64,000 nt of DNA from Amoebophrya sp. A120 (GCA_905178155.1 CAJINV010000008.1:1-64000), one strand, 5' to 3'. Shown: positions 1-55,824, counted from the first letter of the stretch. Translations and numbers: made by a program. The notes: generated by a model from the letters alone, not told the origin.

Positions 1-139
1 CGTAGTTTGTCATGCAGAATAGGCAACACCTAGAAGCTCAGAAACTTGGCATGCTGAGCCAGCAATTGTGGCCTCCTGTCCTCATGATACGCAACACAGC
101 ATCACAAGTTTCCAGACCCAGACACTTTTACATTTGATA
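1..139. mobile_element. Introner family A, right end only (truncated by window)
   Basis: Ends ttccagacccagacacttttacatttgata, the same terminus as the elements at 7054-7318 and 55163-55431; contains ttgtcatgc and gcatcacaa motifs. Confidence 0.85.
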
Positions 140-1329
140 CACCGTGACCAGGAAGTCGAAGCGCTTCGAGACCACGAGGCGCTGCATGAGCGAAATGTCC
201 TTCCGGCCCCGCAGGGCGCGTCGCTCTTTCACCAAGTTGTTGGCCGCGGGGTTCAGTGCATCGATCTTCTGCAGCCGCTCGTCGCGATATGACAGTGCAC
301 AACTCCCCCTCCCCCTCGTCGTTTGTATTGCATGGCGTGTAGGTGTAATACAAGCGCCAGCAAGAATGCAGGTTTTGCATGACGAATTTCCACAAGATTG
401 TAGTACTATTTGGGCTGCCACCAGAGCCTGAACCTGTCATGCAAACAGTGCCAAGAGGCAAAGGGTGAGTTTGGTCTTTTGCATGACAAGTGAGGGGGAG
501 GGGGAGTTGTGCACTGTCATATGCGAAGTTTCCGTGCCTTTTCCTTGATGGTTTTCGCAGCCCGCTTGGCGGCCATGGCACTCGCCATGGACATGCCCGC
601 TGAGTTGCTCGCCGTGGAGTCCAGGCGGGAGGGAGCTAAATTAGGGATAGTGCCAGAAGATTGAAAGTGCACTAGTGCGGATTTTGGTTTCGCGGGGGAA
701 GCGTCTTGACCTTGTCCGGCCGGGTTCGCAGTCGCCGTCGCGGTTGTGTTCGTCGCTGCAGGAGACGAAGGAGATGGATCAGTCGTATCAGCATCCGTTA
801 CAGCTGCGGACCTTCCATCACCATCAGAGAGGGCCGAAGCGCCTGATGACGTAGTGCCCTTTAATATACTCGGCTTTATTGGTGAATAATCACCTGCTGT
901 ACCACTAACAGTAGAATTCGCTTCCGCTTTGACCGATCCAGTAGCAGTACTGGGCTCCCCTCCAAGATTGGTCTTTGCTATTTCCCCAGACGGGGGAGAA
1001 GGCTCTGGTGGTGCTTTTCTTGGTACAACTATCGAATTAGAATTGGTCTTTACCGCAGGAGGGGATCCACTCGTCGCATCGGGAGCATTTGCAGACGGAG
1101 CCGGTCCTTTGTTATTGTTAGCACCGCCCTTTGGAGCAGGTATCCTCCCACTTTCAAACGACGCAAGTGGCGGCATGTTGGCCTTTTTGTTGTCAGGTGC
1201 AGCATTTCTTTGCTTGGAGCTGCCGCTACCATCGCCTTCCAAGAATTGCTTCGAGCTGCTATCGCCCGTTCTTGTCTGGTAAGCCTCGGGGGCTTTCTTG
1301 GATGTGGAATCGCCTGCGCTCTGCGTCAT
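1..1329 (-). CDS. 5' part of a probable ion-transport (voltage-gated channel-like) protein; runs off the window
   Basis: ORF 517-1329 (low-complexity N-terminus, ...KEKARKLR) joins in frame to DERLQKIDALNP...MQRLVVSKRFDFLVTV (287-140) after removing element 288-521 plus one repeat. LVVSKRFDFLVT resembles the pre-S1/S1 start of ion-transport domains; that resemblance is the only support for the product call. Confidence 0.5.
288..521. mobile_element. Introner family B (234 bp)
   Basis: Perfect 30-bp TIR tatgacagtgcacaactccccctccccctc; flanks cgcga/tgcga (4/5); removal restores frame; homologous to 51588-51807. Confidence 0.93.
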
Positions 1330-2763
1330 TTTCGGACAATATCACTGGCCTTGTGTTGCTGTTGAAGTAGGTACAACACTTGTCGGACAACTTCGACTAC
1401 CTCACTGCGGTCCGAGCGTCGACGCCATTCTGTGGTTGTGGCATCAAGAACGGCAGATAACCAACCCACATGGGCAAAATTATGCTAATGTACTTGTCGT
1501 CGCCGTGAACCACAACAACATGAATGGGCTAAACTACCTACTAAATAAAAGTTGCTCACGGATACCGATACGGAACGTAGACTAGGTAATAAAGTAGTCA
1601 CATGTTGTGGTAGAGCGAGAGGCAGATGGGGAATATGATATCGTATGGGGTCATTTGTAAATTCACATTCAGGAGGTAGGCCTGTAAAAAGGACGACGCA
1701 CGCAACCATGAGTAGAAAGAGTTTGATGGTTCTTGGAAAGTCTTCGCAATGTGTTCGAAAGTAGAACGAACGACGAGATGAGATGTCAGCTGCACGCTGG
1801 CTGAACGGACGTGCTGGTTTGTACGATGTCCTGGCGCGCAGGCACACTAGGCGATATAACGGGAACTTGTGTGCGAAGATGGACGACCGACGGCACACAT
1901 TTGATGCACCGAAGGCTTCTTTATTGAGAAGCAGTACGATCGCCGATGAGTTGTACGACAGTGTATAGCGTTTGTAGTTCGACGTCGAAAGTTAAGTAAT
2001 GCCAGCACACCAGTTCTTGTTGCAGTAGGTGGCAGCCGCAGCAGGAACGAACCGAAAACTCGATTTATCATTTTGGAGACTTGGTTGCACTTTCGTTCTT
2101 TGACAAAGTAAGCATCGCTACCGAGGGGAGCGTGGAAAATTATCATCCACGAGAACCGAAAAAGCAAAAAATCTTGCAAACATCTGAGATGCATCGAGCT
2201 GAGTGGCTGATGTATATCTACCTATGTTCCACAGACACATCATGACAGGATCGGATACTTCTTCTACTTATGCGAACAGATCTAATCTTCATCTGCATCG
2301 CAGCAGATAGTCCACTTAACCATAGACTCTTTTTGGTGTGGTTTGTCACTGCGCAGAAAACAGAATCTGCGAATGCTAAAAATGGACGCGTCTCTTGATG
2401 TGAAATACACGTCAAGATGAATTGTCCTAACAGCGCTGGAAATTAACACAAAAGGAATCAAGGCAACCTCGATATGGCACACTCTGGACCACGTAGGTTC
2501 GAGGCTATCCCTTTTCCTGTTCTGAAAAACGAAAAAAGCTCTGTCCACTAGTTGATATGCAAACAGGTGGCAGTAGAAAGTAGCGCGAAACGAGTTTCAA
2601 TAAACGAAGGCAGGCACCTCAAATGCAAACGTATAGACCACAACAAATGCGTTTAAAAAAGTATGTGAATGACATGGAGTAAGTACGCAAACTGCTGGGG
2701 GCTGTTAGTGCTATCGGTGTGGATCACCTAAGTCTACTTTAACTTTTTCATCAACTGGTGCTT

Positions 2764-5406
2764 CTACATCTTGCGCCGTTTTGCGTCTGGCGGCTGCAGC
2801 GAAGAAGCAGGTGTGACATTTTGCGAGGCAGCTTCTCTTGGAGACGAGGCGGATCCTGCCAGTTGTAGCGCAGGCATGACAGGAAAAGTCGCCCCGGCGT
2901 CCCCGCTGTTGCTCGTTTTCGGTGGCTATGCGATGCAAATATCACTCCGTCACTCCGGGTTGTTAGGATTCTCGTTGAAAAGAAACACTTGATCATGACA
3001 ATAAGAAAGCGGAAGCGCTCATGCAGTTGTCATAATTGGACGTTCAAGCACGGGATTATGGTTTGATCATGTTCATGTTGCATTTTTGAATTTTCAGCGA
3101 AAAAAACATCAAGAATGAAATAACGTCCGCATGATATTAAAGTTGATTCGCTTTCGAGAATGACGGAGGTAATATTGTTTGCGTTCGATAGAGGCATGCT
3201 GGGCGAGTGGTGGCTCCTGCGGCGGACATCGGGGGAGTGCAGCGACTCGGTGGCGTGCTGCCGCCGCATGTGCGGTGAGGATATGCCGCACATCTTCTCC
3301 GGCTGTAAAATTTCGTCCACCTGGGACTTGTTCAGAAATCCCTTCTCCACCACGACTTCGCCGACAGCCCGGTTTTCCTTCAGCGCCGTCTTCGCCACCA
3401 GGGAGGCGTTCTTGTAGCCGATGGTGGGCAGCAGGGACGTGACGATCCCGATGGAGTTGTGCACCAGCTCCCGGCAGCGGTCCTCGTTGGCGCCGATGCC
3501 GTCCACACACCGGAGGCGCAGCGTGTCCATGCCCTTGCTGAGCACCTGCATCATCATGAAGATGGAGTGTATGATCACGGGTTCGAACACGTTCAGCTCG
3601 AGCTGCCCGGCCTCGGACGCCATCACCACCGTGTTGTCCATGCCAATCACCTGGAACGAGCACATGCTCATCACCTCCGGGATCACCGGGTTCACCTTGC
3701 CCGGCATGATGCTGCTCCCGGGCGCCATGTCCGGGAGGTGGATTTCGTTGAAGCCGCACCGGGGCCCGGACGCGAGCAGCCGCAGGTCGTTGCAGATCTT
3801 GGAGATCTTGACCGCCACGCGGCGGAGGATCCCGCTGAAGAACAGCATGGCGCCCACGGAGCTGCTGGCCTCGATCAGGTCCGGGGCGAGCTGGATGGGG
3901 AGCCCGGTCACCCGCTTCAGCTCCTCGACGGCGGTCTCGCTGAATCGCGGGTCCGCGGCAATCTTCGTGCCGATCGCCGTGCCGCCCAGGTTGCAGAAGC
4001 AGAACCGGTCCACGCCCTTGGTGACCTCTTCCAAGTCGTACCCAATCGTCGTGGCGTAGCCGTTAAACTCCTGGCCCAGCGTCATCGGCACGGCGTCCTG
4101 CAGCTGGGTGCGGCCCATCTTCACGACGCTGCAAAATTCTTCGGCCTTGTTCAAAAAGGACTGCCGCAGCTGCTCCATGGACTTCACTAAATGCTTGTGC
4201 ATGTGGTGGATGGCAATCTTGGCGCTGGTTGGGTACGTGTCGTTGGTCGACTGGGCCTTGTTCACGTGGTCATTCGGGTGGCAGAACTGGTAGTCGCCCT
4301 TCTTCTTGCCCATGATTTCCAGGGCCCGGTTCGCAATCACCTCGTTGGCGTTCATGTTGGTGGACGTCCCGGCGCCGCCTTGCACCTATCCTGTGCAAAA
4401 GTATCGTACTCCTAGTCATTGCAGTCATGCATGACAAGTCTGGTTCGTTCCTTAGCTTATTCAGCATTACAAATTCCATTTTTCCTTCTGGAAAAATTTG
4501 TGATGCTATTTCTACTAGTACGATACTTTTGCAATGCATAGCACCATGTCTACCACGAAACTGTACCGCAGGTTCCGCATGATGTCCGCCTTCTCGGGCT
4601 CCTTCTCCTCGTACCGCTTATCCTGCAGAAAAGCACAACACCCAGCAATATTCAAAAATACTTATTTGCGATTTGCAGCTGTCTCAAGTGTGGTCACAAA
4701 GAATGGTCTCTTTTTGCCGGCTTTTCAAGAACGTGACGAATTTTATTTCAAGTCCTGGACTACTTGATGACTCCAGCTACAGGTCCGCATCTTTACACTC
4801 TCCATCTTTTATTTTAATTACAACAGTATGACCACAGAAATAAATTGCCTCGCTAGTGGCTCAGCATTGCAAGAAAAGGCTATCGGGACGGGAGAACAGC
4901 GAAACACAAATTCAATTTTTTCTGGTGTAGGAGTAGGTATGCTTTTCTCTAGGATAGTGGTCCGGGTCCTCGATGAGCTCGTCGCAGGCCTGCACGATCG
5001 CGACCATGATTTTTTTGTCAAGCCCACCGAGGCGATGGTTGGCCAGCGCACAGGACTTTTTCACCTGCGCAAATGCAGTGATAAACGAGGGGAACTGCCG
5101 CAGCAGCATACCGGTGATCTGGTAGTTATCCACCGCACGCAGGGTTTGCACGCCGTAGTAGGCGCCGACGGGCACTTCGCGCTCGCCGATCAGATCGCGC
5201 TCCAAGCGGGTCGGCCCCGTGATGGAGACCGGACACCCGCCGTGGCGCCCGTGACGCTGAAACGACAATCCTACACTCTCAGCCGCGGATCCGCCTGCCG
5301 ATACATTGCTGTGGCGGGCCGGGACGTTGTGGTCTACCGACAGGTGCTGGTGCGTTCGCGGCGGAGAGCCAGGCTTGGTCGGCTGGCCTGCGGGTGCGCT
5401 CGACAT
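2764..5406 (-). CDS. aspA: Aspartate ammonia-lyase (aspartase), 4 exons
   Basis: Motifs GEREVP..AYYGVQTLRA, VDMVQGGAGTSTNMNANEVIAN, HPNDHVNKAQSTND, KMGRTQLQDA, GSSIMPGKVNP. Exons ~5406-4957, ~4618-4545, 4385-~3191 and ~2925-2764. The last exon (...PPDAKRRKM*) is inferred from frame only. Confidence 0.92.
2927..3190. mobile_element. Decayed introner (264 bp) forming the last aspA intron
   Basis: Starts tatgcgatgcaaa, ends tttgcgttcgata; flanks gtggc/gaggc (4/5); residual catgacaa and ttgtcat motifs; removal gives in-frame SPSMPPKTSNS. Confidence 0.6.
4387..4540. mobile_element. Introner family C (154 bp)
   Basis: Ends tatcctgtgcaaaagtatcgtact ... agtacgatacttttgcaatgcata; perfect DR gcacc; removal gives VVDMVQGGAGTS. 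Can be excised as a GT-AG intron at 4544-4386. Confidence 0.95.
4619..4956. mobile_element. Older introner (338 bp, family E) with eroded TSD
   Basis: TIR tatcctgcagaaaagca / tgcttttctctaggata (15/17). Flanks ccgct/gtggt match only 2/5, but removing element+5 gives in-frame EDPDHYEEKEPEK. Confidence 0.75.
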
Positions 5407-6455: not shown

Positions 6456-9283
6456 TTAAAGCTCCTCGTCCGAGTCTACGCTCGCTTCTCCACTTTTTTC
6501 TTCGTAACTTTCTTCATCTTGCTTCTGCTGCTCCTCCTCGTCGTCGCTTTCCGCTTCAGAGTCGGTGCCGTCGCCGTTTTGGGCCTTCTTATACTGCTCG
6601 TTCGCACGTCGCAAGTCCTCCTCCTCTTCTGAGTCCCGATCTAGATCCGTTCGTCGCGCCACGTATGCATTGCAAAAGCATCGCACTAGTAGAAATCGCA
6701 TTACAAATTCGGCCCGCATGAGAAATAGAATTTGTCATGCTGTTTCACCTTGGAATAGAGAATTGTAATGCATGATTGCGATTACTACAAATACGATACA
6801 GTAGTTGCACAGGCTACCACAGTTTCCTCATAAATTTCGCGCATGTTGTAGTTGTACCGTTTCTGGTATCCTGTGCAAAAGTACCGCATTCGTACTATAT
6901 CGCATTGATGCATTACAAATTTCCTTCTCAAGCTAAATGCGCATTAGAAATTCCACTTCTCATGATGAGGAAATCTGTCATGCGATTTATACTACTACGA
7001 TACTTGTGCAGTGCATATCTGGTACCGCCTCTTCATCAGTTCGCGCACGCTACTATCAAATGTAAAAGTGTCTGGGTCTGGAAGATTCTGAGAAATGTCA
7101 TGCATGTTTTGCATGACCCAGGATGTCTGTAATGCACGACCGCGCATCACAGATTTTGCGCTGGCTTCCTGATGGCTACTCCGCATGACAAATGCCCTCC
7201 CCGCGTAGCACAAAGTAGACTCCTCGTCTTGCTGGTCATGCAATACAGATTTTTCTAGAGTCCAAGGTTAGCATCACAAGTTCCAATCTTCCAGACCCAG
7301 ACATTTTTACATTTGATAGCTCCCCAAGACCCCCTCGTCGAAAAAGGTCACATCGTGAAACACCATGCGTATGGATTGCAAAAATGTCTGGGTCTGGAAG
7401 GATGCGAACTTGTGATGCGTGTTGCGGATCATACAAAAATCTGTGTTGCGTGACTTTCAAAAGGTCCCCATTTCTGGCCATTCTGAGAGGGCATTTCTCA
7501 TGCAGAATAGGCATCACCAAGGGGCTCCAGAACCTGTGATGCCAGGCCCTGCATTCCAGACTTGGCGGAGCTTGGAAAAACTGCATGACAAGTCTCGGAA
7601 TCTTCCAGACCCAGACATTTTTGCAATGCATAATGCGACTACCGTCCTCCCTCGGTGGCAGCGGCGTGCAAACCGTCTCGTTCGTCGGCAGGCTAGCCTT
7701 CGGCCGCGTTTTGGAGAGGTCCGGGATGGTGTCCAGGTTCTCCGCCCAATGAAAATCATCCTGCCGACTCCACCTTGTCGATACAATTACAAGTGCCTTA
7801 TAGAGGTTTTCAACACGACTGGCACACGCACAGACACACACACGTGCGGCATCGAGAAAGGTCATGATGCATGATCAGCAATTTTGTCCTGCGTGAGGAC
7901 TTGGCCATTTAAGTACGGTTTACAGAAGGTTTCTTTGTGTTTGTAGTTTCTCATGTGAAGATAGAAGAGTACAACTTACCAAACGTTGACCGCCAGATTG
8001 CGGGTTCCCCCAGAATTGACCTGGTGAAACCAGCCGTTGGGAATGAAGAGAATGTCGCCCTTGTACATCGTCAGCCGTTGCTTCGGCACGTGAAAAAATT
8101 TGGGGTGCTTTTTCAGGTTCACCCGATCTTGGTTGATCCTGGAGTAGCCCCCCTTGATCGCAATTTCGCGGGCAAACTTGGGGTCGATCAGCGTGACGAG
8201 CTTGCTGCCCTCCTGGAGCATGAGAAAGTTGTCGGCGTCATCTTGGTGCAGCACGGAGCTGGTGCCTCCGCTGGAGAACCAGATGGTCATCGACTGATAC
8301 AGGTTTTCCTCGCAAGCCAGCATTCTGGGGATTTCCACATCGCTCTGCAACCTCTCCTCCGCAGATAACTTCTTTTTCGATGAACTAGATTTGGCGGCTC
8401 TGGTTCTTTTGGAAGATTTGAGGTCGAGCATCTTGCGGTTGTGCAGCACAAATTCGGGCGGCGCGCCGTCCTTCGCCTTTTTCCCCTTCGGGCCCTTCAC
8501 CGCGAACGCTTTCATCAGCCCCGCAGGACTTTGGCCGAACTCCGGGACCGCCTCGGTGCCGATGATGGCATACAGATCCTCCACGTCCTTGCGTTTGATG
8601 AAGTCCTTGAACAGCATCTGTGCTCGGGGCCCGCCCCGGACCTCCGATTTGGATCGTTCCGCATTCACAACAATTTTGCCGATCTTTTTGTCCTTTGCAA
8701 AGTACTGGTCGGTCCACTTCTCCAAGAAGGGGTTGCGGAAGTTCGCGTTCCGGAACAGCACCGGCTGGTGGTGTCGGGCGTACTTCTCGTAAAATTCTGC
8801 CCAGTCGATTTCGCCTGATACCACCGGCACTGTGTTGGTCGTCGCGGGAAAGTCCGCCATTGGCGCCCCGTCTAGTTCGTGGAATTTCTTTTTACCGCCC
8901 GAGGATTTAGTATCCTCCTCATCGTCCTCATTCTCCTCCTCTATTGCCTCCGGGATCTTCTTCGTGCTGCTCGGGCGATCGTTTGAGTTTGTGGCTTTCT
9001 TCGATTTTTCTGCGTCACTGGTGGCACTTGCTGCCTTTTTGCCACCGCTATCCTTTTGCTTGTTCTGTTTCTTTTTCGCCTTTTTTTCACTTTTGGCTTG
9101 CTTCGCACTCTTTTTTTTCGCACCACTTTTTTTGCCGACAACTTCCAGGGTGGGAAGTTGCTCCTGTGATGTGCACAGCTCGTGAAATGGACGCAACAGA
9201 GACACGATCACGAACGAAGTAGCTACAGCACGAGTCACGAAGCCACCAGTCGCACGAGGCAAGTAGCTTGCCATGCCCGACAT
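6456..9283 (-). CDS. JmjC/cupin-8 domain 2-oxoglutarate oxygenase, probable secretory-pathway protein ending DEEL
   Basis: ORF 7976-9283 has a hydrophobic N-terminus, PVLFRN, SVLHQDDADN and GDILFIPNGWFHQV (HxD...H triad). A GT-AG intron (7979-7774) and four introners follow; the spliced tail reads NVWWSRQDDF...GSRMVFHDVTFFDEGVLGSVRELMKRRYQKRYNYNMREIYEETVARRTDLD...SDEEL*. Confidence 0.88.
6664..6816. mobile_element. Introner family C, reverse orientation, diverged (153 bp)
   Basis: Starts tatgcattgcaaaagcatcgcactag, ends tgcacaggcta (ATA end mutated to CTA); flanks ccacg/ccaca; removal restores frame. Confidence 0.85.
6867..7017. mobile_element. Introner family C (151 bp)
   Basis: tatcctgtgcaaaagtac ... 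gatacttgtgcagtgcata; perfect DR tctgg. Confidence 0.92.
7054..7318. mobile_element. Introner family A (265 bp)
   Basis: TIR tatcaaatgtaaaagtgtctgggtctggaagatt / aatcttccagacccagacatttttacatttgata; flanks gctac/gctcc. Confidence 0.94.
7370..7632. mobile_element. Introner family A variant with C-like tips (263 bp)
   Basis: tatggattgcaaaaatgtctgggtctggaag ... cttccagacccagacatttttgcaatgcata; perfect DR atgcg. Confidence 0.94.
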
Positions 9284-12649: not shown

Positions 12650-15600
12650 TTAGTCGTCTTCACCAGATTCCTTCTTTTGCCTCAAAATTTCGTCGTATTC
12701 CGAATGCGGGAGCGGCTGGTCGGGCACTGTTAGTGCGGACGTGAATTGCGGATTCATTTCATGCAGGGGGGGCGCAATGTTCTCCGGCCACGCCTCCATT
12801 TCGTCATCTAGGGCAGCGCCTTTCACCTGCACAGAGGTGCCACTTCCAGTGGACGGGGCGATGTGGTACGGTTGTTTCATCAGCCGCCGCGAAGGAGCGC
12901 TGGTGCCAAGAACGCCCCCCGCCGCCGTCCCGTTACTGGAGTTGGTGCTATTTGATTTTGACTCCGGGATCAGATAGCTCGGAGACTGTAGCGCTGGACT
13001 CCGGGCTGCGCTCGTCTTTAATATCACAGGACCACCAGGAGTAGCTCCTCCGGGGTCAAGTTGACGCTGATCTGTTTTTGATGAGGTAAAAACAGTACCA
13101 CCTCGTCCCTCGGTCGTAGTACCTTGATCAAGGTCGTTTGCGTTGCTCAATGTGCTGTCCAGTGCATTGGAATCAACGGGTCGTCGTTGATGTTCCGAGG
13201 TAGTGGTTTTTGCGTCAATCAAGGAAGGCGCAATTTCGTCCTCATCGACGTCAACGTCACCTGCACGACCAGAGCTTGAGTTTGCGGCACCTTGCGAAGC
13301 GGCACTAGTACCAGGCACTGTGCTATCAGAAGGTGCGGCTGTGGATCCTGAGGAAGAGAAGGCAGCTGATGTGGATGATGAGGATGACGAAGCGAACAGA
13401 AGGTCCCGCGACGCAGACGACGGGCTGGAAGATATTTGGCCGCGAATCGCAAGGAGGTCGGGCGCATGATCTTGGTCAATTTTTTCAAAATCAGACCCGG
13501 AGCTCTTGATTTCGATCTTGGCTTCCATTTTCGAGCGTTCGAAAACCTCCTCGATCACTTTGGCCTCCTCAGCATCGTCCTCTTCGTCTTCGTCTTCCAG
13601 AGCAGCATCCTCCCCACTCACACTGGATATGCGCGTGGTCAAGAATTGCTCCGCTTGTTCTTGCGCGGGCAGTTGCTGCTGTTGATCCGCGATTTTTTCG
13701 ATTGCCGGCGGCGCAGTCGGTGTAGTCGGTTTGTTCGCCGCTTGGTTCTGCTTGGTCGCCACGACAAGCGCGTCGGACAATTGCTCCGACTGTGCCCCCT
13801 CTTGTAGCTCGGCGGCGGCAATTTTTCTGGCACTGACGGCGTGTTCGGACACTTCTGTGTCTACTGCCGGAGTCGACATTGCGGATGCCGGAACCACGCC
13901 GATGTCGTCATTTTGCTCATCATCTTCTGCGGACGATGAAGAAGCGCCAGTACTGCTACCTACCCCGAGGAGCATTTTCTTCATCTCTTTACTCGCGGCT
14001 TCGACATCTGTCTCCAAAAGAAGGTCGGGCGCAGGGGGCGCTCCACCGCCCCGAGCGGCGTCCTCGTCCGCTTTCCTGGTAGGGAAATCGCCACCTTGTG
14101 ATGTCACCGCTGGCGTCGAAGCTACTTCCTGATTTTCGTCTACGCTACCTGGTGCCCCCGGTTGCTGGGTTGAAGCACTAGAGGACTGTTGCTCTTTGAT
14201 ATTACTCAGACTGCCTGTAGTACCGGTTGCTGTCCCAGCAGCTGCAAGAAGTGACGCGGTGCCACTCAAAGCTGTAGTTCCTGCGAGCGCGGCTTCTTGC
14301 CGACTGCTGATCGTGCTTCCGGTGGGGCTGTTGGTGCTGAAGTGTAGGCTTTCCGTGTCGCTGAATTCGTGGTCCTCATCCAAGAAGGTCGCGGTCGTGT
14401 GAGTGGGCGCGGTGGGGATGGGGAAGTTCAGAGCCCGCGCCACTTCGCGGTCACTCGAGTGCTGCAATGAGCGGCCCGCGGCCAGCAGTTTGCGGTGGTG
14501 GCAACACTTCCCGATGCCCGGCTTGAGGTGCGGACCGATCAGCAGCGCCCACTGCAGTCGCACGTGCCGCACCTTGTCCGCAGCGAGGTCGCCCAGATTC
14601 GTCAGAAAAAACGACACAAACCGGCGGCTGACAGTGTTGTCCCGGATCAGGGAGTCCACCATCTTCAGATAGGTGATGCGGTTCTGAAAGTTTCCGTCTT
14701 TGAAGGTTTTTCTCAGGTGATTCACGATGCGCTTCGTGCGGAGCGAGAAGTACTTGTTGTTGTAAAAATGATTCATCTTGTTCCCAGACTGTATCGCCGA
14801 ATGTAGTTGTCCGGTTGTAGTTGACGAGGATCCTTTGCCCGTTGGCGTGCTGCCGACGCTCATTGTGGTCGTTGCCATGGTGGTTCTGGGAGAGGGATCA
14901 AATTTGTTAGTCGCGATCATATTACCTCCGCCGCCTCCGCGAGAAGAGGACACCGATGCCGGAGAGTCGCCCGACGATATTGACGAGGCAGGGCCACCAG
15001 CGGTCATGTGATCCGATTCGCCGCTGCTACTCAGTTCGGCACTGATTTTCGACGGTGAGGGGGACGACGCATTGGCACCTCCTGGAATATTAACACCGCC
15101 CCCTCGGGTCGTCGACGAGGAAGTATGTTTTCGTGCCTCTTCGCAGACGGCCTTCAAAACCAGATGGGTGGCGGCTGCTGCTTTGGACCGAACGAGTGCG
15201 ACGCCGTCGTGTAGCAATTTGAGGTACGTGGGGAGCAAGTGAACGAACACCAAGTTGTGGTCGTGGGTGTATTTTTATCCTGTGCAAAAGCATCGTACTC
15301 GTATAAATGCAGGTCTCGTCTTGCATTACAAATCCTGTTCCCAAGGCAAATCTGCATTACAAATTTTATTTCTCATGCTGAGGAAATTTGTAATGCATTT
15401 ATACGAGTACGATACTTTTGCAGATCATAATTTTTCGCAGAGTGCCGGCAAGCTGACCGTGGCGATCAGGTGGCGCAGCCTCCAATTGTCCGTGGATGCC
15501 ATCATGTGCGAGAGGCCCATCAGATACTGCGGATGAACCTCAAACATGCCCACGTGCTTGGCGAGCCCGAGTTTCACGTCGTCGCGGTCCTGCGTGAACT

Positions 15601-20128: not shown

Positions 20129-20999
20129 TCATCTGCGTTGGCGCTTCGCCTCATGGCGGCCCGTGTCACCGTACTTCTGAAGATCCCGGGTGTCGTAGTC
20201 AAAAGTCTCGAATTTTCTGCCTTTGTACTCGTCTTTGTCTCTGCCGCCTCGGGTATCAAATGCAGATATGTCTGAGTCATCTGGAAGATTGCAAGATTTC
20301 TCATGCACATCTTGCATGATGCATGACGTCCGTGATGCATGTTGCCCTAGCATCACAGGTTTTGTGAGGGGTTCCTGATGCCTATACCGCATGAGAAATA
20401 CCTATATATTTATAATACCCCTCCGCGTACTAGCAAGAACTGCGCTCCTCTGGCTCCTCACGCAATACAGATTTTTGTTTTTCTTTTTGCAGCATCCAAA
20501 GGCAGCATTACAAGTTCCAACCTTCCAGACCCAGACATATTTGCATTTCATATGGGGCCCTGCTAGCTCCATCTTTAGGATGGCAGTAGTCGCGGTCATC
20601 GTAGGTCAGACGGCTTTCAGGTTTTGAAGCTGGTGGCGTGCGGTATTGGAACCGAGGCACCCACAGGGGAATAGCACAAAACCGATCGCCGCGGCGGTTC
20701 TTGGTCAAGTTGAACCGGACCCAGTCACCCTCCTTCAACCCGGTCGGTCGCAAGACCCGATCGTGAATGAAGACGTCTTCTAGGTTTTCGGTCTTGGGGC
20801 CTTTCGTGACTCGGAGGAAGCCGTTGTTGGACCAGTTCAGGACGCGGTTCACCTGACCTTCGAACACGCCCGGGGTTTTCGCGGAAGAAGTCCCGTCCTG
20901 GATCCCTTTCGGATCTCCTAACAACAGCCAGTCCGCCGTCTCCAGCCAGGAGGGACGCTCCGTGCTCGCCGCTCGCCAATACCCGTCGTTTTTTTCCAT
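20129..20999 (-). CDS. Cold-shock/OB-fold domain coding segment (own gene, or last exons of the upstream multi-domain gene)
   Basis: FEGQV...NNGFLRV...EDVFIHDRVL..TGLKEGDWVRFNL matches the CSD RNP1/RNP2-like pattern; continues in frame across element 20254-20552 to ...AKRQRR*. Confidence 0.7.
20254..20552. mobile_element. Introner family A (299 bp)
   Basis: tatcaaatgcagatatgtctgag ... ccagacccagacatatttgcatttcata; flanks tcggg/tgggg; removal restores frame. Confidence 0.9.
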
Positions 21000-23470: not shown

Positions 23471-23601
23471 TTAGCTAATATTCGAACGCGATCGCGAATA
23501 TAGAAGAAGAAGAAATACAAAACATGAAAAGACACTTTTGCACAACATTGCTCCGTTTACTTGTGTCTGCGTAAAAGAGTCGATATTTTTTCAGAGTACG
23601 T

Positions 23602-29465: not shown

Positions 29466-30343
29466 TTAGGTCGACGAGCTCTCATCTTCCTGTGGTATAA
29501 GGGTTCGGATCGTCACGGCGTGCCACTTTTTGATTTCCTCGCGTATGGGTTCCTGTACCATGCTATGCATTGCAAAAGTATCGCACTAGAATAAATTGCA
29601 TCACAAATTTTGGCAAAAAGAACAGTGGAATTTGTCATGCTGTTTTACCTTAGGAAGGAGATTCGTCATGCATAAATGCAATTTTTAGTACGACTACGAT
29701 ACTTTTGCACAGGATACATGCGCTCCCGCTGCAAGCGCGACTTGGAGTCGAACGCCCTGGATTCCACCACGATTTCGTAACTGGTGCCGCACCCACCGGA
29801 GCGGTCCGTCACCTGTACATTAACGGTCTCGGTTGGTGGTGACAGCTTCGCGGTGAAGTGTCGTGCGATCAGGTCACGCACGTGCTTTTCATACTCCGGC
29901 CCGGAGGACGGCGTGCTGGACGACGTAGATGACATGGTCCGTCGAGGTGTGCTGTGGTTCCTCGTCGCAAGGCCATGCGTGCTGTGGCACTGCGGCTGCA
30001 CGAAGCTGGTCGTGGTCGTGAAGAAAGACCTTGCAGCTGCACTTTCATTGTCTAAAAATACACAAGGCCGTGCTAGTACTCCACGAAGATGAACAAGTGG
30101 CCGCGCCGAGGAGACGGAACTACTAGCGGAGTAGACCATAGTGCTGGCAACTACAGGTGCAGCACATGCACTCCGGCGCACGGCGACTGATGATAACATT
30201 TGCGTACCACGGCCCTGGTTCCAAGTGCAGGTCGCAAGGGACTGCCGCAGAAGTTGGCTTCCGAGTTGTACAACTGTTCTGGCGGAGGTGGTACTGCGCG
30301 ACGCAAAGCTGCGCCGCTGCGAAACGAGAAACACAGAAGCCAT
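29466..30343 (-). CDS. BolA-family protein (BolA3-like) with probable mitochondrial transit peptide
   Basis: VQVTDRSGGCGTSYEIVVESRAF..KSRLQRERM|VQEPIREEIKKWHAVTIRT after removing element 29564-29716; R/S/T-rich, acid-poor N-terminus. Confidence 0.88.
29564..29716. mobile_element. Introner family C, reverse orientation (153 bp)
   Basis: tatgcattgcaaaagtatcg ... cgatacttttgcacaggata; perfect DR catgc. Confidence 0.95.
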
Positions 30344-38400: not shown

Positions 38401-41400
38401 GCGTTCTCCGCGCCTCTGCGCACCAGCCTTGACATTGTCACGCCCAGCACCTACGCGTCCAGGAGAAGACTTCCCATCTCGGCGGCGATCTCGCTCTCGA
38501 CTCATACGTTGTGGTCCACCGTCACGCTCCCGGTTAGAAGAAGTATTTTGATTGCTATTGAAGCGACCTCCACCTCTTCCAGGACGAGAATTGGACCTCT
38601 TCTTGTTCCTTGGACTCGCCGCGACGTCCCTCCCGCCCCCTCTGTGATCCTTGCGATGATCTCGTGCGCGGTTATTTTCACCGGGCGGGGGAGACTTTGA
38701 CTGAGTTCTTTGATTCATCATGCGATCACGAAAGCCGCCACGCGTTCCGTCATTGCGCATTTGTACACTGTTGTTGCGATTAAAAGTATTTTTGTGCTCC
38801 ATGTTGGTTCCTCCCCCCCGTCGATCCCGAGAGTCCGCTTTGTTGCGCTGGTCCTTTCGGCCGCCTCGATCGCGACCACCACGAGCATTTTGTGACAACA
38901 TGCCGTTTTGTTTATTCGCGCCCCGATCTCGGGACGAAGTAGCGCGCGGACTGCGGCTCCGGCTGCGCCGCGGCGGGGCGGCCAAGGTTTTACGACGTCC
39001 ACCTCCGCCATAGTTATTGCTCATTCCACCTCCACCGAGAGTTTTACGCCGGTTGCCGCCACGGCCGCGAGGAAAACTGTCATCCCGGTCGGATTGCTGT
39101 TCCCTGGACCTATTACGCTGGTTCCGAGCCTCGTTACTCAGGCTTCGCTGTCCAAACCGCCGACGCGGCGAGGCGTCGCGGCGTTGCTGGTGGTGCGCGC
39201 CGCCGTGGTTCATCTTCTTGCCCCGCTGTTGTACCCCGGAAGCAGAGTATCACAGAGACAAAACCATTTATATATCACAAAAAACTATGCGGGAAATCAA
39301 TCTGTCATCGGCCGCCGCCGCGGCGACCCGATCGTGGGCCGTTTCTGGTGTGGTCGTGCAGGGGCGGCTTATTTCAGCACTGTGTTATGATATTGTAGAC
39401 TTACAGTTACATCACTTAGAGTTAGATTTGCCTTTGCATAATTTACAAATGTGATTTTAGGTTTTTTCTGTTGGGTACAAAGTTGCGTTGGTTTTGACCA
39501 CGCTGGTGTTGTAAAGCGTTGTTGCGGCCCCGCGGGGGCCCTCGGCCAAAACTGGCTCCTCCAAAGGGTCGCGGAATCACGCTTGCCTCGGCCTCGCCAA
39601 AGTCTTGGCTGATGCCGAGACTGCTGCTCCGACTGTGGTGGTCATCTTCGTCTTCATCGTCCTCCCGGTGTTCATCGTCGTCAGATCTCCGTTGTTCTTC
39701 TCCACCTTCCCGGCTATCATCGTCGTCGCTGTGCTGGCCCCCGCCCCCGCGCCGGTCATGATCCTTCTCGAAATCCACTTTTCGCACCTTGTTCCGGCGC
39801 TTGGCGCCGTCGGTACTTTCCGCCCCGTAGTAGTCTTGCACCGAAGGAGAAGATTCCCCCCTGCCTGCAGGAGAGGACCGCTTGTTTTTCGCATCAAACG
39901 GAGAAAAGTGGGCTGCCGAATGTCTCCTCTTGTTCATATTCTTATCGCGGTCCGCGTCCGAGTGCGAGCTGTGGCGGTCCTTGCTTGTACCGACGACTAT
40001 CTGCACTTTCTTCTTTGTCCCGTTGCCCAAATTTTTGGCCTCAACATCGGAAGATTCAGTGTCGTTGTTGTTGGTCCTGCTCCTCCTTGGGAAAGGCGAC
40101 CCGCACCTCCGATTGTTCTGCTGTTCACCTTGATCATGTCCCTCTGCCGCACGCTGATTTTCCGGCTTCCTCAGAATGCTGGTTTTATTCTTTGCGCCCC
40201 CACTGCGGTCATCAAGATGATTTACTTCATCTTCATCATCTTTCTTGTCCTCGTCGTGCTCACTTTCCTCGGAAGAGGAGAGACTTTGATTCTCGCTTGA
40301 ATTATCCTCAGAAGCAGAGCGGTTCGCGTCATCTTGTTCTGGCGCCTCCTTCTTGTTCTGTTCCTCGTCTACGTGGTCATCCTCATCCTTCGCGTCGGCC
40401 AGCGCAGGCTGATCGACCGGCGCTGAAGATTCGGCGGCCTTTTTTGCTGAGCCCGCGATCTCTTGGGCATTCTCTTGAACGACCTCCTGAGCAGCTTCCT
40501 TATCCTTTTTCGTCTTCTGCGCTGCGTCATCATCCTCGGCGCCGGATGGGCCGGCGCTTTCCTCAACGTTGGTCTGTTTTGTAGTAGTCTTCGCGACTCC
40601 ATCTACCACGGACGAATGCGGAGGAGTTACCGTCACAGGACTGTTTAGAGTTGTTTATTTTTGTGTATTCGCTGCCAATGGAATTTATTTTCATTAGATT
40701 CTTCGAAATCAAAATGTTAAAAGTCATGAAATAGAAATCGATTCTCTGTGGCATTGCCTAAGTACTTCGTTGCAGCAACCAGAGACACCAAGAAAAATTT
40801 TTTTACACGAGAATCCACTTCCGACGTAATGATGCAAATCCAAAAACAAAATGTTTTCTTGAAATTGAACAAAAGAGCTGTAGCTGGCTTTGGTTTTTGA
40901 AAGATCTGCTGAATATTGAAATTGAAGATAGACTCAAAATAATGAAAACGAACCTGCTCTGTTGGATTTGCGCGGCCGTGTGTTTTTTGTTCGCAGATGC
41001 TGCCGGCTCTGCTTGTTCCGCAACGCCGACGCTTTCCTGCTTCTGCTTGTTCTGAACAAGAACCTCCTCGTGGGGCGCTTCAGATAACAAGACTGGAGTG
41101 ATAAATTGCGTGGCCGCAAGGGACGTCGAGCCTGTACTCGCTGCAGCAGCAACCGGGATCGGAGCTCCGGAAGCAGGAGTGCCTGCAGTCGAAGAAGCCA
41201 ACACCGGGTGAAAAGTGGACGATAACTGCGCAACTGGCGTGGCCGCCGTAGTACTCGAGGAACAAGCTGCCGCGCCACCGACTACACCTAGTTGATGTAC
41301 ACTTTGGTGCTGGGTTGTAGTAGTTTGCTGCAACTCTACCTTCAACAGCTCGTCGATCACCGCGACTCGTTGGTTACCCAACGAAATTTTCTGGTCCTTG

Positions 41401-41504
41401 AGTTCCTCGAGAAACTTAATTTTCTGGTCCTTGAGTTCCTCGAGAAACTTGTCCTGCGAATTGATCGCGAGCAGCTTCTGCTCCAACAATTTTTTCACGT
41501 CCAT
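32459..41504 (-). CDS. Giant low-complexity protein (probably one multi-exon gene) with RS/RGG segments and a G/N/Q-rich C-terminus
   Basis: Collinear ORFs 40803-41504, 39443-40636, 36739-39213, 33901-36450 and 32705-33712. In-frame GT-AG intron at 40953-40641; final exon YAGGGGNNN...GEGY* follows element 32706-33024. Middle joins not resolved. Confidence 0.6.
32706..33024. mobile_element. Diverged family-A-like introner (319 bp)
   Basis: tatgcattgaaaatatgtctgg ... tcagacacatttgcaaatgtgata; flanks agccc/agcct; removal gives NHGGYAGG. Confidence 0.85.
41385..41450. repeat. Perfect 33-bp tandem duplication (KFLEELKDQKI x2)
   Basis: aattttctggtccttgagttcctcgagaaactt occurs twice in tandem. Confidence 0.9.
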
Positions 41505-51500: not shown

Positions 51501-53150
51501 AGCTCTTCGCCGACCTTGTCCCGCTCATCAACGACTTCCAACCAGTCGGTGAGAAAAACCTCGTAGGACTCATAGACCAGTGCAAAATATAACAATGCAC
51601 AACTCCCCCTCCCCCTCATTTGTATAGCATGAACGGCAATACAAGCATCAGCAAGGATGCTGGTCTTGCATGACAAATTTGCACTGGAGTATAGTCTGTG
51701 CTATTTGGGCTACCAGAACTTGTCATGCAAACAATGCCAAGAGGCAAAGGGTGATTTGGATACTTTGCATGACAAATGAGGAGGAGGGGGAGTTGTGCAC
51801 TGTCATACAAAATCGTGGGCCGTCACAATGGTCTCGATGGCCTCCTGGTAAATCGCCCGGGCCTTATCAAACCAGGCGAGCCGAATGAAATGGTCCGCCA
51901 GACAAATCCAGAGCCTACCCACCTGATAATATTGGAAAGATTTTTACGTATGGACACTCATCTTTTCATCTGCATCGAAAAATTTTCGCACTAGGGTCTG
52001 ATGTATTTGGGAAAAGGTGTGGTAGGAATAGGTTTTCACCACGCGACAAAGAATGTGCAAAAAAGAAGAACAGATAAAAAGACCCCGCAAGGCCATTCAT
52101 GTACCTCGTCGGTGAATTTCCCGATTCCCTGGCGGATGATGGGTTCAATTTTTATCGACCGGATTTCTCGGGGGTGTTTTGAGATGAGCTCGCAGAGGTC
52201 GAGCCAGAGCTGGTGGCGGGACTTGCCGTTGATGCTGACAAAGTCCTCGTCGTTCAGAATCTCGACCATTTTCACGGCTGCTTCGTCGTAGATTTCCTGT
52301 CGAAGGAGGTAGGCGATAAAGGTCTCCACGTGGCTGGGCTCCAACATCAAGTAGCGGCGGAAGAGCGTGAGACAGGTCTTCTGGGGGATGACCGCGTGTT
52401 TGTACTTGGTCCCGCCCACCCAGGGAATACCAATGTTCCATACCCGGTGATGCTGCTGGATCGGGAGGGTGCGAAGCGCCCCGTCGATGGCACGGCGGGT
52501 TTGCGTCACGCGCCGCTGCTGGATTAGAAACTCGAGGTAGTCGAGCCAGATGCGCGGCATCTTGTGCATGAAGATCAAACACCGGTCGTAGATCGCGTTC
52601 ACCTCCGCGTAGGCCTCGTCGGAAATCGGGTCGAAATTCTTGTTCCCATAGTGTGCCTGCTCGATCTTTCGTCGTTCGTCCAGCGACTTCCTTCGCTCTA
52701 GCAAATATCTGCGCCACAGCTTGTACGACATCGGCAGTGTCTGATAATTAATGTGTTGGACTCATTTCATACATGTCGTGAATTGAACAAAACTTCTGCA
52801 GTGTCCTCGTCCTGACCACATCGACGCCAATCAGGTGATGATGTGTAGTAAAATCATTCACTATGTCTTAACTTTGGATCACCAGGAACAACATCAGCAT
52901 CAGGGATGAAAAGTATAAAGATCTAAAAGTAGATAAACATGTAAACTTTCATTCTCACCTTCAGCGCCCGTTCGTACATCAAGTATCGCAGTGCGGGATC
53001 GGTCTTCTTGATCGTGTCGATGTACGTGATCCACACCCTAGGCCGGTAGGGATCCAGCGTCAACTCCTCTTCCAGTGTGTCATTGAGCACCGAACTGAGG
53101 TCGTGCAACACACTGTTGGACGCGGAGGAGCCACCGTTCTGCATCGACAT
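48524..53150 (-). CDS. SYF1: Pre-mRNA splicing factor SYF1/XAB2 (HAT repeats), ~7 exons
   Basis: YERALK|TLPMSYKLW, MHKMPRIWLDY, LPIQQHHRVW, LLNSVLLRQNPHVVAEWLKRV, DDLASIWCEWIEMELRH, DLKIATPQVIINFA, KKLERSRDLFE, FEMRHGNAETFKEMRRIQRSV; GT-AG introns plus one introner. Confidence 0.95.
51588..51807. mobile_element. Introner family B (220 bp) in SYF1
   Basis: tataacaatgcacaactccccctcc ... ggagggggagttgtgcactgtcata; perfect DR caaaa; removal gives VTAHDFALVYESY. Confidence 0.94.
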
Positions 53151-54374
53151 TTTGCAAGGAAGAATGTTGCTCCTGCTCCGTGAGTCGAGTGCGAGTCGTC
53201 GCAAAAATAAGGTCGTACTAGAAGACACTGCTTTGCCAACTTCTAAGAATGTGACTACGAGTAACACTAGAACTTAGTCACCTACTTGGCCGCAGAAAGT
53301 GAAAGTCGTCCGGCAACAACGTAAAGATATTTACATGGTTGCTTCGCCTTTGCTAGTAGTAGAAGTACGCTAGCCACAGGACATCAACCAAGAGATATTG
53401 CCCAAATGTCGTGGTGGAAAGATGTAGATGTCATAAACCTAATGCTGATGGTCGCCGTCGCGTAGAAATATAACTGTCGGTGTCGCCTGGAATGCAATTA
53501 CAGATCATGAAATCAAAGGAGAGAAAACACGGATCACATATCTATGGAAAAATAAAATTAAGCACGCTTAGTACAGGATCGCTTCCGGTGCATTCGTGAG
53601 TCTCAAAAAAAAAAATGAACTGATCTACATCCTCATATGTGTTGAACCAGTTGCAATTGTTGTAGAGCCATTTTTATCGACTATTGATGGGGACGAGCAA
53701 TAGTCATCCGCGAAGGATCTTTAGCAGGAAACAACGATCGCAAGTTTATTGCTTCTGCGCAGTGAATATTGAATGATCGCGAAGGAGACTAATAGAGGAA
53801 AAATGCGCCATCGTTTGCAGCTACAGAACTCCAGTATTTAACTCGCTGAGATTGCGACAATGACTGGCTCACGCACAAGTAGGTACCAAAGCACGATGTC
53901 ATCAGCGGTGAATCATCGTGTGCACTGCGTGCAATTCCGAGTTAGTGGTTCAAGACCAAGAGTGCATCAAGTATGCAATCCTTTTCGTACAAACAAAACA
54001 TGTATTTCAGGCATTGATATTAAGTAGCTTCTGCGTTCTCATGCGCGATCCATGTGAAAAACATTTTCATTTACATTTTGTACATGAGCTGAGAGACCAC
54101 GGGCAGCCTTTTCGCAATTTTCTTTTCATTTCATAAAAACTTAGAATAAATCTGCAAAGAGGAGGAGCAGCAAGCGTCCGCGTTGCGTTCATCGTCATTT
54201 ATTCGACCAGCAGTTGCTTCGTAGTATTAAGAATTATATCACGAGAAAAAAGCACCTCTCCTCGAGAATCACGTTGTCCAAGAGGGTTCGATAGCATCTT
54301 TCCCTTTGTCGTCGAGCTTTTTTTTATCTCGTAGTGCTATTTATTGCATCTTCTGGCGGTCCTCTCCTCGGCGA

Positions 54375-55824
54375 CTACAGGATGATCTCATCCTGAAACG
54401 CGGCTTCAGAAACACCAGGCCGCAACAGTGACGGCGCGGGATTTTCTGCTTTTCCTTGCTTGTAGCTACTGTCAATATTGCCGGCCAACATTTTTTCGCT
54501 CTGCGCTCCTCGGCTCGGATTTGGTTCAGTTCCCACAGGCTGCTCCACCTCAGCACCATTGAGGACAGGTGGTGTTTTGCGGCAGCAGCTGCGCATCGCG
54601 TTGTCCGAGTCGTAGGGACAACACTTCTCTTTCGTCTTGGGGGACCCGGGCCAATCTTCGCAATACGGGGTGGCTGGCGCCTTCGCGAAGAGATCCGGGG
54701 AAATGTCGCCGATGTAGTGCGTGTCGCCAAAACCGCCGACGTAGTGGATTTTCTCGACGGATGTCGTCCAAAACGTAAAGTTGTGAGATGTCATGTGCTC
54801 CCACTGCCGCGCGTCGGGGTGCTTGGCGAAGAAACAGTCGGACACGCGCTGGTACTCGCGTCGCTCCGCTGGCGAGTCAGCGCCAAACCGCGCCCCAGGT
54901 TTTGCTCGCCCGAGAAAAGTGACGCTGTGCAGCGTCATTGGGTCGATGGCTGTGTCGTTGGCGTTGGGCGCTCGCACATGGAACGACACGTGGTTCTTGT
55001 AGTGCAGCACCGCGTCCAAGGTGGCCTCCAGTGGGCTCGAAAAGATCCATATGTCCTGCTGGTTGGCGCAATCTGCCGCGATTTGCTCCACCTGCCCGAA
55101 CGGAAAATCTTGGTACTGCGGGTCCCGGTAGTAGCGCACCATCATGGTTGCGAAACCCTGCTTATCAAATGTAAAAATGTCTGGGTCTGGACGAATGCAA
55201 CTTGTGATGCTATTTTTGGAATCCAAAGAAAATCTGTATTGCATGAGCAACAAGAGGCGTCCAGTTTTTGCTCCGCGGAGAGGGGATTTCTCATGCGGGA
55301 TAGGCATCAAGATGCCCGCAAAAAATCTGTGATGCTACGGCATGCATCACAGACATCATTGGTCATGGTCATGGAAAATATGCATGACAAATCTAGAAAT
55401 CTTCCAGACCCAGACACTTTTACATTTGATACTGCTGCCCGAGTAGCTGCTTCGCCAGCGACGCGGCCTGGTACTCCGTCGGGATAGTCTGAATATCTGT
55501 AGGGGAGCTGGTGCTCCTACTGTCACGTCTCCCTGCTTCAGGATCTTCATCGCTGTTACGAGGCAAGAGCAGATCCTTGTGGTCTGACTGGGAGCGACGT
55601 CGAAGAAGCTCAACATCAAACTTCTGATGATCTTCGAGACCTGCCACATAATCCGTGTAGCTTTCCTTGGAGCTGCTGCTTCTTCTTGCAACCTCAGTTT
55701 TCGGATTTGCCGTTCTTTCCGCAGCAAAACACATTCGTGAAAACCAGCGGCCGTCGTGGGCGAATAGGAGAAAGACCAGCTGGATCTTGCTTCGTCTTCG
55801 AAGGACAGAGCGATTTCTCATCAT
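54375..55824 (-). CDS. CREG-like / pyridoxamine-phosphate-oxidase-like split-barrel protein, secreted-type
   Basis: FPFG, CFFAKHPDARQW..SHNFTFW...IHYVGGFG; ORFs 55420-55824 and 54375-55310 join as LLGQQGFAT across element 55163-55431. Confidence 0.82.
55163..55431. mobile_element. Introner family A (269 bp)
   Basis: 29-bp TIR (28/29) tatcaaatgtaaaaatgtctgggtctgga; perfect DR ctgct. Confidence 0.95.

What the first reader, a model, noticed from the sequence alone, without database searches (positions are those of the whole stretch)
1..55431. Multi-family introner system: TAT...ATA inverted-repeat elements with 5-bp target duplications that act as introns
Seen: 17 elements (<1-139, 288, 2927, 4387, 4619, 6664, 6867, 7054, 7370, 15276, 17422, 17732, 20254, 29564, 32706, 51588, 55163). 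They carry TIRs and TAT/ATA tips (6664 ends CTA). Of the 16 complete ones, 8 have perfect 5-bp flanking repeats, 7 match 4/5 and one is eroded. All lie inside coding sequence, and element+5 removal restores the frame, often through conserved motifs (aspA, BolA, SYF1, CREG). Known: inverted-repeat introners with non-canonical boundaries are reported in Amoebophrya, so the phenomenon itself is not new. Inference: one rule (TAT tips, 5-bp TSD) across about five TIR families points to a single mobilising machinery. It does not match Tc1/mariner (TA), piggyBac (TTAA), hAT (8 bp), Mutator (9-10 bp) or Transib (5 bp, but CAC tips).
Basis: partly seen in the sequence, partly recalled or inferred. Interest (0 to 1): 0.92.

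Follow-up and report, generated by a model that had tools for sequence, protein, structure and literature searches.

The report
Transposon introns with fixed splice geometry
Genes of the marine parasite Amoebophrya are interrupted by small hairpin-ended mobile elements that were already reported as unusual introns; three of them are missing from transcript assemblies here, and the data suggest one simple cutting rule (one base before the element, four bases after it) that is likely applied by a modified spliceosome, which would make their unexplained splicing directly testable.

Summary
Observation confirmed: all 17 elements are present with the stated flanks (8 perfect, 7 at 4/5, 1 eroded, 1 cut by the window edge), plus three missed ones. 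The window is Amoebophrya sp. A120 (aspA exon 100% identical), whose TAT-starting inverted-repeat introners are published (PMC7789003); one family is listed with a 5-bp TSD and TA ends (PMC12130899). So the system is known. Added here: transcript contigs lack element+5 at three aspA sites. A related lineage gave 386 elements: 285 have exact 5-bp duplications, no other length exceeds control, and there is no target preference. The one unambiguous junction cuts 1 nt before TAT and 4 nt after ATA. Families occur in both orientations. Among 237 oriented copies the first T is never lost at the 5' end (0 versus 8 at the 3' end), and 6 of 7 damaged 5' tips have G before them. I infer a spliceosome reading N-UAU as donor and measuring the acceptor from the hairpin (about 0.55). 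No transposase was found; an integrase-type (IS3EU/GingerRoot-like) enzyme is the best guess. The scan noted similar hairpin introns in other dinoflagellates.

The parts
1..139 (.). right end of a family-0 element, cut by the window edge
   Evidence: aligns to ends of 7054 and 55163
288..521 (-). element, family 5; TSD 4/5 (mismatch at position 5 in transcript direction)
2927..3190 (-). element in aspA 3' part; spliced intron 2922-3190 or 2923-3191 (269 nt = 264+5)
   Evidence: joint 2921->3191 in X1 and X4
4387..4540 (-). element in aspA, family 1; 159 nt skipped (154+5), cut can slide within the perfect TSD
   Evidence: joint 4381->4541; gap-free against homologues
4619..4956 (-). element in aspA with eroded TSD (2/5); intron 4615-4957 (343 nt): 1 nt before TAT, 4 nt after ATA
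   Evidence: record 8 coordinates; only this register gives P0001
6664..6816 (-). family-1 element, 5' tip TAG preceded by G; TSD 4/5
6867..7017 (-). family-1 element; TSD 5/5
7054..7318 (-). family-0 element; TSD 4/5
7370..7632 (-). family-0 element; TSD 5/5
15276..15429 (-). family-1 element in HEAT-repeat gene region; TSD 5/5
17422..17686 (-). family-0 element in HEAT-repeat gene; TSD 4/5
17732..18039 (-). family-6 element in HEAT-repeat gene; TSD 5/5
20254..20552 (-). family-0 element; TSD 4/5
23432..23831 (-). additional older element (TSD 2/5), frame restored only at +5
26144..26417 (-). additional element (TSD 4/5, weak TIR), frame restored at +5
29564..29716 (-). family-1 element in BolA-like gene; TSD 5/5
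32706..33024 (-). singleton element with family-0-like ends; TSD 4/5
39248..39477 (-). additional element (TSD 4/5), 5' tip TAC preceded by G, joins ORFs of 392 and 834 codons at +5
51588..51807 (-). family-5 element in SYF1; TSD 5/5
55163..55431 (-). family-0 element in CREG-like gene; TSD 5/5
62075..62302 (-). possible further element (TSD 3/5); frame test inconclusive
2767..5406 (-). aspartate ammonia-lyase gene carrying three elements; spliced product equals the public A120 protein P0001 (623 aa)

Best explanation
These are the Amoebophrya A120 introners: non-coding DNA-transposon derivatives with TAT...ATA inverted ends and 5-bp target duplications, three of which are missing from transcript contigs together with exactly five flanking bases, and which are likely removed by a modified major spliceosome that would take the last duplicated base plus TAT as its donor and would place the acceptor four bases beyond the hairpin, whatever the sequence there. 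Shown: ends, 5-bp duplication, no target preference, occurrence in both orientations, excision of element+5 at three sites, exact -1/+4 cut at one site. Inferred: (a) that the -1/+4 register is general (about 0.75); (b) that the spliceosome does the cut, because the element's T-A-T occupies donor positions +2 to +4 and matches the host's canonical donors GTA(T), the +2 T is not lost at 5' ends, and a G at +1 accompanies damaged 5' tips (about 0.55); (c) that the acceptor is measured from the paired ends, since no AG or other sequence is favoured there (about 0.55); (d) that copies are moved in trans by one integrase-type DDE transposase lineage close to IS3EU/GingerRoot but with a 5-bp stagger (about 0.5). 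Because the cut removes element+5, insertion of a 5-bp-TSD element anywhere in a gene, in either orientation, would be silent at the protein level, which would explain the mass spread.
For:: contigs of X1 and X4 skip 269, 159 and 343 nt at the aspA elements; contigs of X7 run through 2927 and 4619 unbroken. At 4619 (TSD 2/5) the join is 4614->4958; of six registers only this one reproduces the public protein P0001; exact 5-bp match in 285 of 386 elements, lengths 2-4 and 6-10 at control level; reading frames on both sides require a 5 (mod 3) gap in 57 of 60 confidently scored elements (of 228 testable); in RPB1 of the relative, +5 gives the best alignment to an orthologue in 6 of 6 elements (+2 and +8 open gaps); both orientations (family 0, 45:41; family 1, 12:9; family 3, 11:12); +1 base G74/A64/C52/T47 and all 16 terminal dinucleotides at the 3' cut; outermost T lost in 0 of 237 5' ends versus 8 of 237 3' ends (Fisher p=0.007); 6 of 7 damaged 5' tips follow a G against 74 of 237 overall (p=0.005), and both window cases (6664, 39248) do too; 8 of 8 canonical RPB1 introns start GTA, 5 of 8 GTAT. 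Published: all nine top A120 splice motifs begin N-T and all nine A25 motifs begin TT, A25 ends starting TTA; GT and AT far outnumber GC and GA starts in the large A120 families (fam3: 998, 647, 191, 212 of 3852); spliceosome proteins, U2, U4, U5, U6 present and U1 not detected in A120.
Against: Only one junction fixes the register from RNA; 2927 allows two registers and 4387 six. The junction tables were truncated, so 9 of the 12 elements in the laid 20 kb are neither shown nor refuted; the runs are only guessed to be RNA, come from one study, and P0001 probably rests on similar data. The 2021 paper states that splice sites are variable relative to the hairpin, and I could not see its logos. 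Tip statistics are post hoc, small, and depend on a strand call from a coding model; among less confidently oriented copies three damaged 5' tips follow C, C or A, and 6 of 15 damaged 3' tips also abut the equivalent of a G. No G-U versus A-C asymmetry in the stems overall (224:216), so selection on RNA pairing is not shown, and the 4619 element folds no better than shuffles (z -0.9; others -2.5 and -6.8). No branch point was identified. No transposase was found.
Confidence: 0.58

Rival explanations
1. The same fixed geometry is read by a non-spliceosomal, hairpin-guided nuclease/ligase system, as proposed for Euglena nonconventional introns (3-nt 5' and 5-6-nt 3' overhangs, circular excised RNA).
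For: No constraint at +1 or at the 3' dinucleotide; orientation independence; U1 not detected; Euglena parallel with asymmetric overhangs.
Against: The one-sided conservation of the first T and the G at +1 before damaged tips mirror the host's GTA(T) donors; published A25 ends also put T at +2 and A at +3; 15% of canonical A120 introns share the IR/DR layout.
Confidence: 0.25
2. The cut floats within the duplication (as the 2021 paper describes), guided by identity of the two 5-mers, and the exact cut at 4619 is one case among several.
For: Published text: IRs lie 1-5 nt from the splice sites, border position unknown; only one junction is exact here.
Against: 4619 has a 2/5 duplication yet loses exactly element+5; sliding inside perfect duplications is expected from aligners; N-T starts dominate published tables; G enrichment sits precisely at -1 of TAT.
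Confidence: 0.12
3. Mobilisation is by several unrelated transposases; uniform TAT tips and 5-bp duplications reflect survival, because only such elements are spliced without changing the protein.
For: A -1/+4 cut is neutral only for 5-bp duplications; A120 also has other introner types (fam65: GG/CC ends, 8-9 bp); interiors of the families do not align.
Against: Families share more than the tip: TAT-N5-G-N-AAAA ends (matrix) and an internal GCAT[GCT]ACA motif in 15 of 15 multi-copy families, 14.8 per kb against 1.4 per kb outside, mostly 30-50 nt from an end.
Confidence: 0.25
4. The elements are ordinary MITE insertions that inactivate genes and are not spliced.
For: Some contigs of the RNA-like runs hold element sequence.
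Against: Junction contigs; six copies in RPB1 and three in aspA with intact reading frames after removal; published RNA-supported intron sets.
Confidence: 0.02

Closest known systems
Amoebophrya sp. A120 introner elements (Farhat et al. 2021, PMC7789003)
   Same: Same strain; IR families starting TAT then about 7 variable bases then AAA; direct repeats of 3-5 nt with a 5-bp example; non-canonical borders; about 240 nt; no internal transposase.
   Different: The paper gives variable repeat length and variable or unknown splice position and calls families strain-specific; here the duplication is uniformly 5 bp, the cut appears fixed at -1/+4, and families are shared with a sister lineage (84% identity at four-fold sites of one gene).
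A120 introner family 38 (Gozashti et al. 2025, PMC12130899)
   Same: Dataset S2 note '5-bp TSD, TA/TA Termini'; TIR DNA element acting as intron.
   Different: About 810 bp with Copia/Gypsy integrase-like homology; the 5-bp/TA rule is given for that one family, while automated calls for other A120 rows range from 2 to 6 bp or none (51 of 58 rows seen). I could not compare its sequence with these elements.
IS3EU/GingerRoot DNA transposons (PMC10045372, PMC6839031)
   Same: TA..TA termini, terminal inverted repeats, no nucleotide-specific target.
   Different: TSD usually 6 bp (7-8 rarely) against 5 here; transposase not seen here.
Ginger2/TDD
   Same: 4-5 bp TSD according to PMC10045372 (PMC6839031 says 6).
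   Different: Termini TG..CA, not TA..TA.
Euglena nonconventional introns (PMC12501133)
   Same: Inverted-repeat ends, direct repeats, MITE-like origin, splice sites at fixed asymmetric distance from the paired motif, coexistence with GT-AG introns.
   Different: Code N3CDG / CH'GN5-6|R with a purine after the cut; here N-TAT / ATA-N4 with no base preference after the cut; unrelated lineage.
Polarella/Symbiodinium and Aureococcus introners (bioRxiv 10.1101/2020.10.14.339549)
   Same: TIR transposon introns, some in either orientation, splice sites drawn from the TSD.
   Different: Those need G-starting donors and AG acceptors, so their target sites are constrained; here neither is required.

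Membership tests
Amoebophrya A120 introner elements | host is A120 | tested here: met
   396 of 396 residues identical to the A120 protein; whole 623-aa protein reproduced
Amoebophrya A120 introner elements | IR starting TAT, about 7 variable bases, then AAA | tested here: met
Amoebophrya A120 introner elements | 3-5 nt direct repeat at the borders | tested here: met
   5 bp:
Amoebophrya A120 introner elements | removed from RNA with non-GT-AG borders | tested here: met
   three aspA junctions (CT..CG at 4619); other elements not seen in the truncated tables
Amoebophrya A120 introner elements | repeated in the genome | tested here: met
   element-confined excess of DNA contigs
IS3EU/GingerRoot | TA..TA termini | tested here: met
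IS3EU/GingerRoot | 6-bp TSD | tested here: not met
   0 of 386 exact 6-mers, 285 exact 5-mers
IS3EU/GingerRoot | integrase-related DDE transposase | not testable with these tools
   no genome held; no transposase family in 17 ORFs of two long copies or in the 131 longest of 463 ORFs of the loci
Ginger2/TDD | TG..CA termini | tested here: not met
   TAT..ATA in 356 of 389 copies, one change in 33
Ginger2/TDD | 4-5 bp TSD | tested here: met
U2-type spliceosomal intron | G at +1 | tested here: not met
   74 of 237; C at the exact junction 4619
U2-type spliceosomal intron | U at +2 conserved | tested here: met
   0 of 237 lost at 5' versus 8 of 237 at 3' ends; assumes the -1 register
U2-type spliceosomal intron | AG acceptor | tested here: not met
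   19 of 237
U2-type spliceosomal intron | branch point and lariat | not testable with these tools
   no usable raw reads of this strain (X11 covers no host gene)
Euglena-type nonconventional intron | N3CDG / CH'GN5-6|R code | tested here: not met
   ends are N-TAT / ATA-N4
Euglena-type nonconventional intron | pairing of ends needed for splicing | tested here: inconclusive
   G-U 224 versus A-C 216 overall; 141 versus 108 at stem positions 11-25, p=0.04 uncorrected

The most novel reading that the evidence does not exclude
Amoebophrya A120 and its sister lineage run a spliceosome with a second code: donor N-UAU (only +2 U fixed, G at +1 optional), no AG, acceptor measured four bases from the transposon hairpin; this code is matched to an undescribed TA-ended, 5-bp-stagger integrase-type transposon group, so that any insertion in either orientation is an immediately perfect intron. 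The published chaos of splice motifs then reduces to one geometric rule, and strain A25 (TTA ends) uses the same +2 U/+3 A donor.
Probability: 0.45. Interest if true: 0.82.

Novelty: already known. Interest (0 to 1): 0.5.

Why it matters
The elements themselves are published, but how more than 60% of Amoebophrya introns are cut without a splice consensus is left open in the 2021 paper and the 2024 review. A fixed -1/+4 rule with a retained +2 U gives a precise prediction for tens of thousands of junctions, would correct gene models, separates spliceosomal from non-spliceosomal mechanisms by simple tests, and explains why a transposon could spread through essential genes such as RPB1 without damage. 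The uniform TAT/5-bp signature also defines what the missing transposase's substrates look like.

Tried and rejected
No host genome was held and the metagenome records could not be searched by family, so no genome-wide transposase search. A second read-laying did not return data, so the informative junctions at 288, 6664, 7054 and 17422 stay untested. Protein searches for a public model of the gene at 288 found nothing. No element end in viral contigs (one pattern). No Rfam match in the window. Longer copies (457-1148 bp) have unique inserts, ORFs under 151 aa and no transposase family; long-range end pairs look like chance pairs of separate copies. G-U/A-C test: no overall asymmetry. Selection towards GT or AG in the duplications: not seen. 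Horizontal transfer between the two lineages: not needed, best cross-lineage element identity 0.73-0.91 against 0.84 at four-fold sites of one gene. DNA-level empty sites: the only orthologous stretch found (L053, window 39756-41079) holds no element in either lineage. Candidates 48186-48518, 53543-54135 and 60727-60936 were rejected (poor duplication or no frame gain). GCAT[GCT]ACA as a branch point: position and orientation differ between families, so not supported.
Full report
Observation. An unbiased inverted-repeat scan and a TAT/ATA scan recover the listed elements; 6664 ends at 6816 with CTA and 32706 ends at 33024. Of 16 complete elements, 8 have identical flanking 5-mers, 7 match 4/5 and one matches 2/5. 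Removal of element+5 leaves an open minus-strand frame at all 16, though at 2927, 20254 and 32706 other lengths do too. A profile scan adds three elements that restore long frames at +5 and one doubtful case.

Host. The aspA exon 3198-4385 is 100% identical to a protein named Amoebophrya sp. A120, and the spliced gene reproduces that 623-aa protein. Farhat et al. 2021 (PMC7789003; seen: abstract, passages, sections 10, 11, 16, supplement legends and part 3 of 5; figures and logos not visible) describe A120 introners with IR motifs starting TAT, 3-5 nt direct repeats, 1,954 families, variable or unknown splice positions, no U1 snRNA detected and no transposase in A120. Gozashti et al. 2025 (PMC12130899; seen: passages, section 6, SI legends, 51 of 58 A120 rows of Dataset S2) list family 38 as TIR DNA with '5-bp TSD, TA/TA termini' and integrase-like homology, while other rows have automated TSD calls of 2-6 bp or none. 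The system is therefore known.

RNA. Four runs were laid on 1-20000. Contigs of X1 and X4 (guessed RNA, one study, two samples) skip 2922-3190 (264+5) and 4382-4540 (154+5); record coordinates (74 letters between 4381 and 4958) give a third skip, 4615-4957 (338+5). Contigs of X7 run unbroken through the 2927 and 4619 elements. The tables were cut (1050 joints not shown), so 9 of the 12 elements in that stretch are untested. At 4619 the duplication has decayed, so the cut is exact: on the transcript the intron begins one base before TAT and ends four bases after ATA; 2927 allows this register or one more. Only this register reproduces P0001, which is probably not independent of RNA data. The same contigs imply two ordinary GT-AG introns at 11317-11083 and 10807-10561 (inner borders inferred from lengths).

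Larger sample. One end motif retrieved 145 loci (598 kb with overlaps) from a single metagenome assembly. It is a sister lineage: one shared gene has 79% amino-acid and 84% four-fold-site identity, and its RPB1 is 86% identical to the best database hit, with alveolates behind. Family 0 was the bait and is over-represented. Of 386 TAT..ATA elements found without using flanks, 285 have an exact 5-bp duplication and 47 a 4/5 match; lengths 2-4 and 6-10 are at control level. The 348 elements with good duplications (16 from the window) form 33 clusters, 15 with several members. Target sites show no base preference beyond coding composition. A coding model scored 228 elements; among 60 with confident frames on both sides 57 need a 5 (mod 3) gap (83 of 93 at the loosest, 39 of 40 at a stricter threshold). 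Six elements in RPB1, one of 972 bp, align best to the orthologue at +5, with gaps at +2 or +8: a protein-level empty site. Elements lie in coding-like sequence more often than random points (70% of 311 against 40% of 400), but one sits inside a canonical intron.

Splice signal. A tip-tolerant search gave 389 copies, 33 with one changed tip base; 383 could be scored and 237 oriented. Families occur in both orientations, so the signal is symmetric. The base before TAT is G 74, A 64, C 52, T 47, and the last two intron bases take all 16 values (AG 19). The outermost T is changed at 0 of 237 5' ends and 8 of 237 3' ends (p=0.007); of 7 damaged 5' tips 6 follow G (p=0.005), as do both window cases. 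Against this: the tests are post hoc; three poorly oriented copies with damaged 5' tips follow C, C or A; two first-T changes that might be 5' both read G-C; 6 of 15 damaged 3' tips also abut the equivalent of G. Canonical introns of RPB1 start GTA in 8 of 8 and GTAT in 5 of 8 (borders read by eye next to the best-scoring cuts). Thus the element's TAT supplies donor positions +2 to +4. Published tables fit: all top A120 motifs start N-T, all top A25 motifs start TT with ends TTA, and GT/AT starts far exceed GC/GA. Stem wobble pairs show no overall strand bias (224 G-U, 216 A-C), and folding of the three RNA-verified introns ranges from z -6.8 to -0.9, so a need for pairing is not shown. That U2-type introns use GU, AG and a branch point is recalled knowledge.

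Mechanism. Most likely a transposase supplied in trans inserts the element with a 5-bp stagger at any sequence; a modified spliceosome then cuts one base before TAT and four after ATA, restoring the original message. The acceptor is inferred to be measured from the paired ends because no sequence is favoured there and a decayed duplication does not shift it. The closest functional parallel is the Euglena nonconventional intron code (PMC12501133; seen: passages, Discussion), which is the main rival mechanism; Polarella and Symbiodinium introners need G-donors and AG (bioRxiv 2020.10.14.339549, passages).

Mobiliser. TA..TA ends match IS3EU/GingerRoot, whose TSD is 6 bp; 4-5 bp matches Ginger2, whose ends are TG..CA (PMC10045372, PMC6839031; passages). 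Membership in either fails one tested feature. All 15 multi-copy families share an internal GCAT[GCT]ACA motif (14.8 against 1.4 per kb), favouring common origin, but no transposase was found in two long copies or in the 131 longest of 463 ORFs, and survival bias remains a rival.

Novelty. Seven literature searches and the 2024 review (PMC11282704, section 6) showed no statement of a fixed register or a +2 U rule for Amoebophrya; subscription papers and the figures of the 2021 paper were not visible and may show part of it. Earlier scan notes report similar hairpin introns in other dinoflagellates (not checked). Verdict: a known system, correctly seen, with a testable refinement; interest 0.5.

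Noticed in passing
window 40644-40956 against L053:4307/4308: A canonical GT-AG intron in the window is absent from the orthologous gene of the sister lineage (junction after CAG): canonical intron gain or loss between close lineages.
   Followed up: partly
all element families; e.g. window 7054-7318: Internal motif GCAT[GCT]ACA repeated 1-4 times per element, often 30-50 nt from an end, in either orientation; possibly subterminal transposase sites.
   Followed up: partly
L059:6790-7761, L069:7549-8696, L040:3862-4492, L060:10903-11398, L039:571-1051, L022:6314-6770: Longer family members carrying unique inserts of about 150-870 bp; the 972-bp one sits in a conserved RPB1 motif.
   Followed up: partly
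L059:8306-8545: An element nested inside a canonical GT-AG intron of RPB1.
   Followed up: no
window 60140-60710 and L059:1944-2320: A different GC-rich repeat (about 70% identical) shared by both lineages; in L059 it lies in an RPB1 intron between two copies of a ~60-bp direct repeat.
   Followed up: no
window 61270-61850: GC-rich, strongly palindromic stretch with runs of C and G, no Pfam or Rfam match.
   Followed up: no
run X11 on window 7054-7318 and 17597-17647: Raw RNA reads under the same species label match family-0 ends at what looks like one transcript but none of the window's genes: perhaps another strain sharing the family.
   Followed up: no
whole window: All element-bearing genes lie on the minus strand, in line with the published unidirectional gene blocks.
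   Followed up: no
L053:6001-6262 and 6743-7031: Two neighbouring elements share the same 5-mer target, suggesting a local duplication or repeated exon sequence.
   Followed up: no
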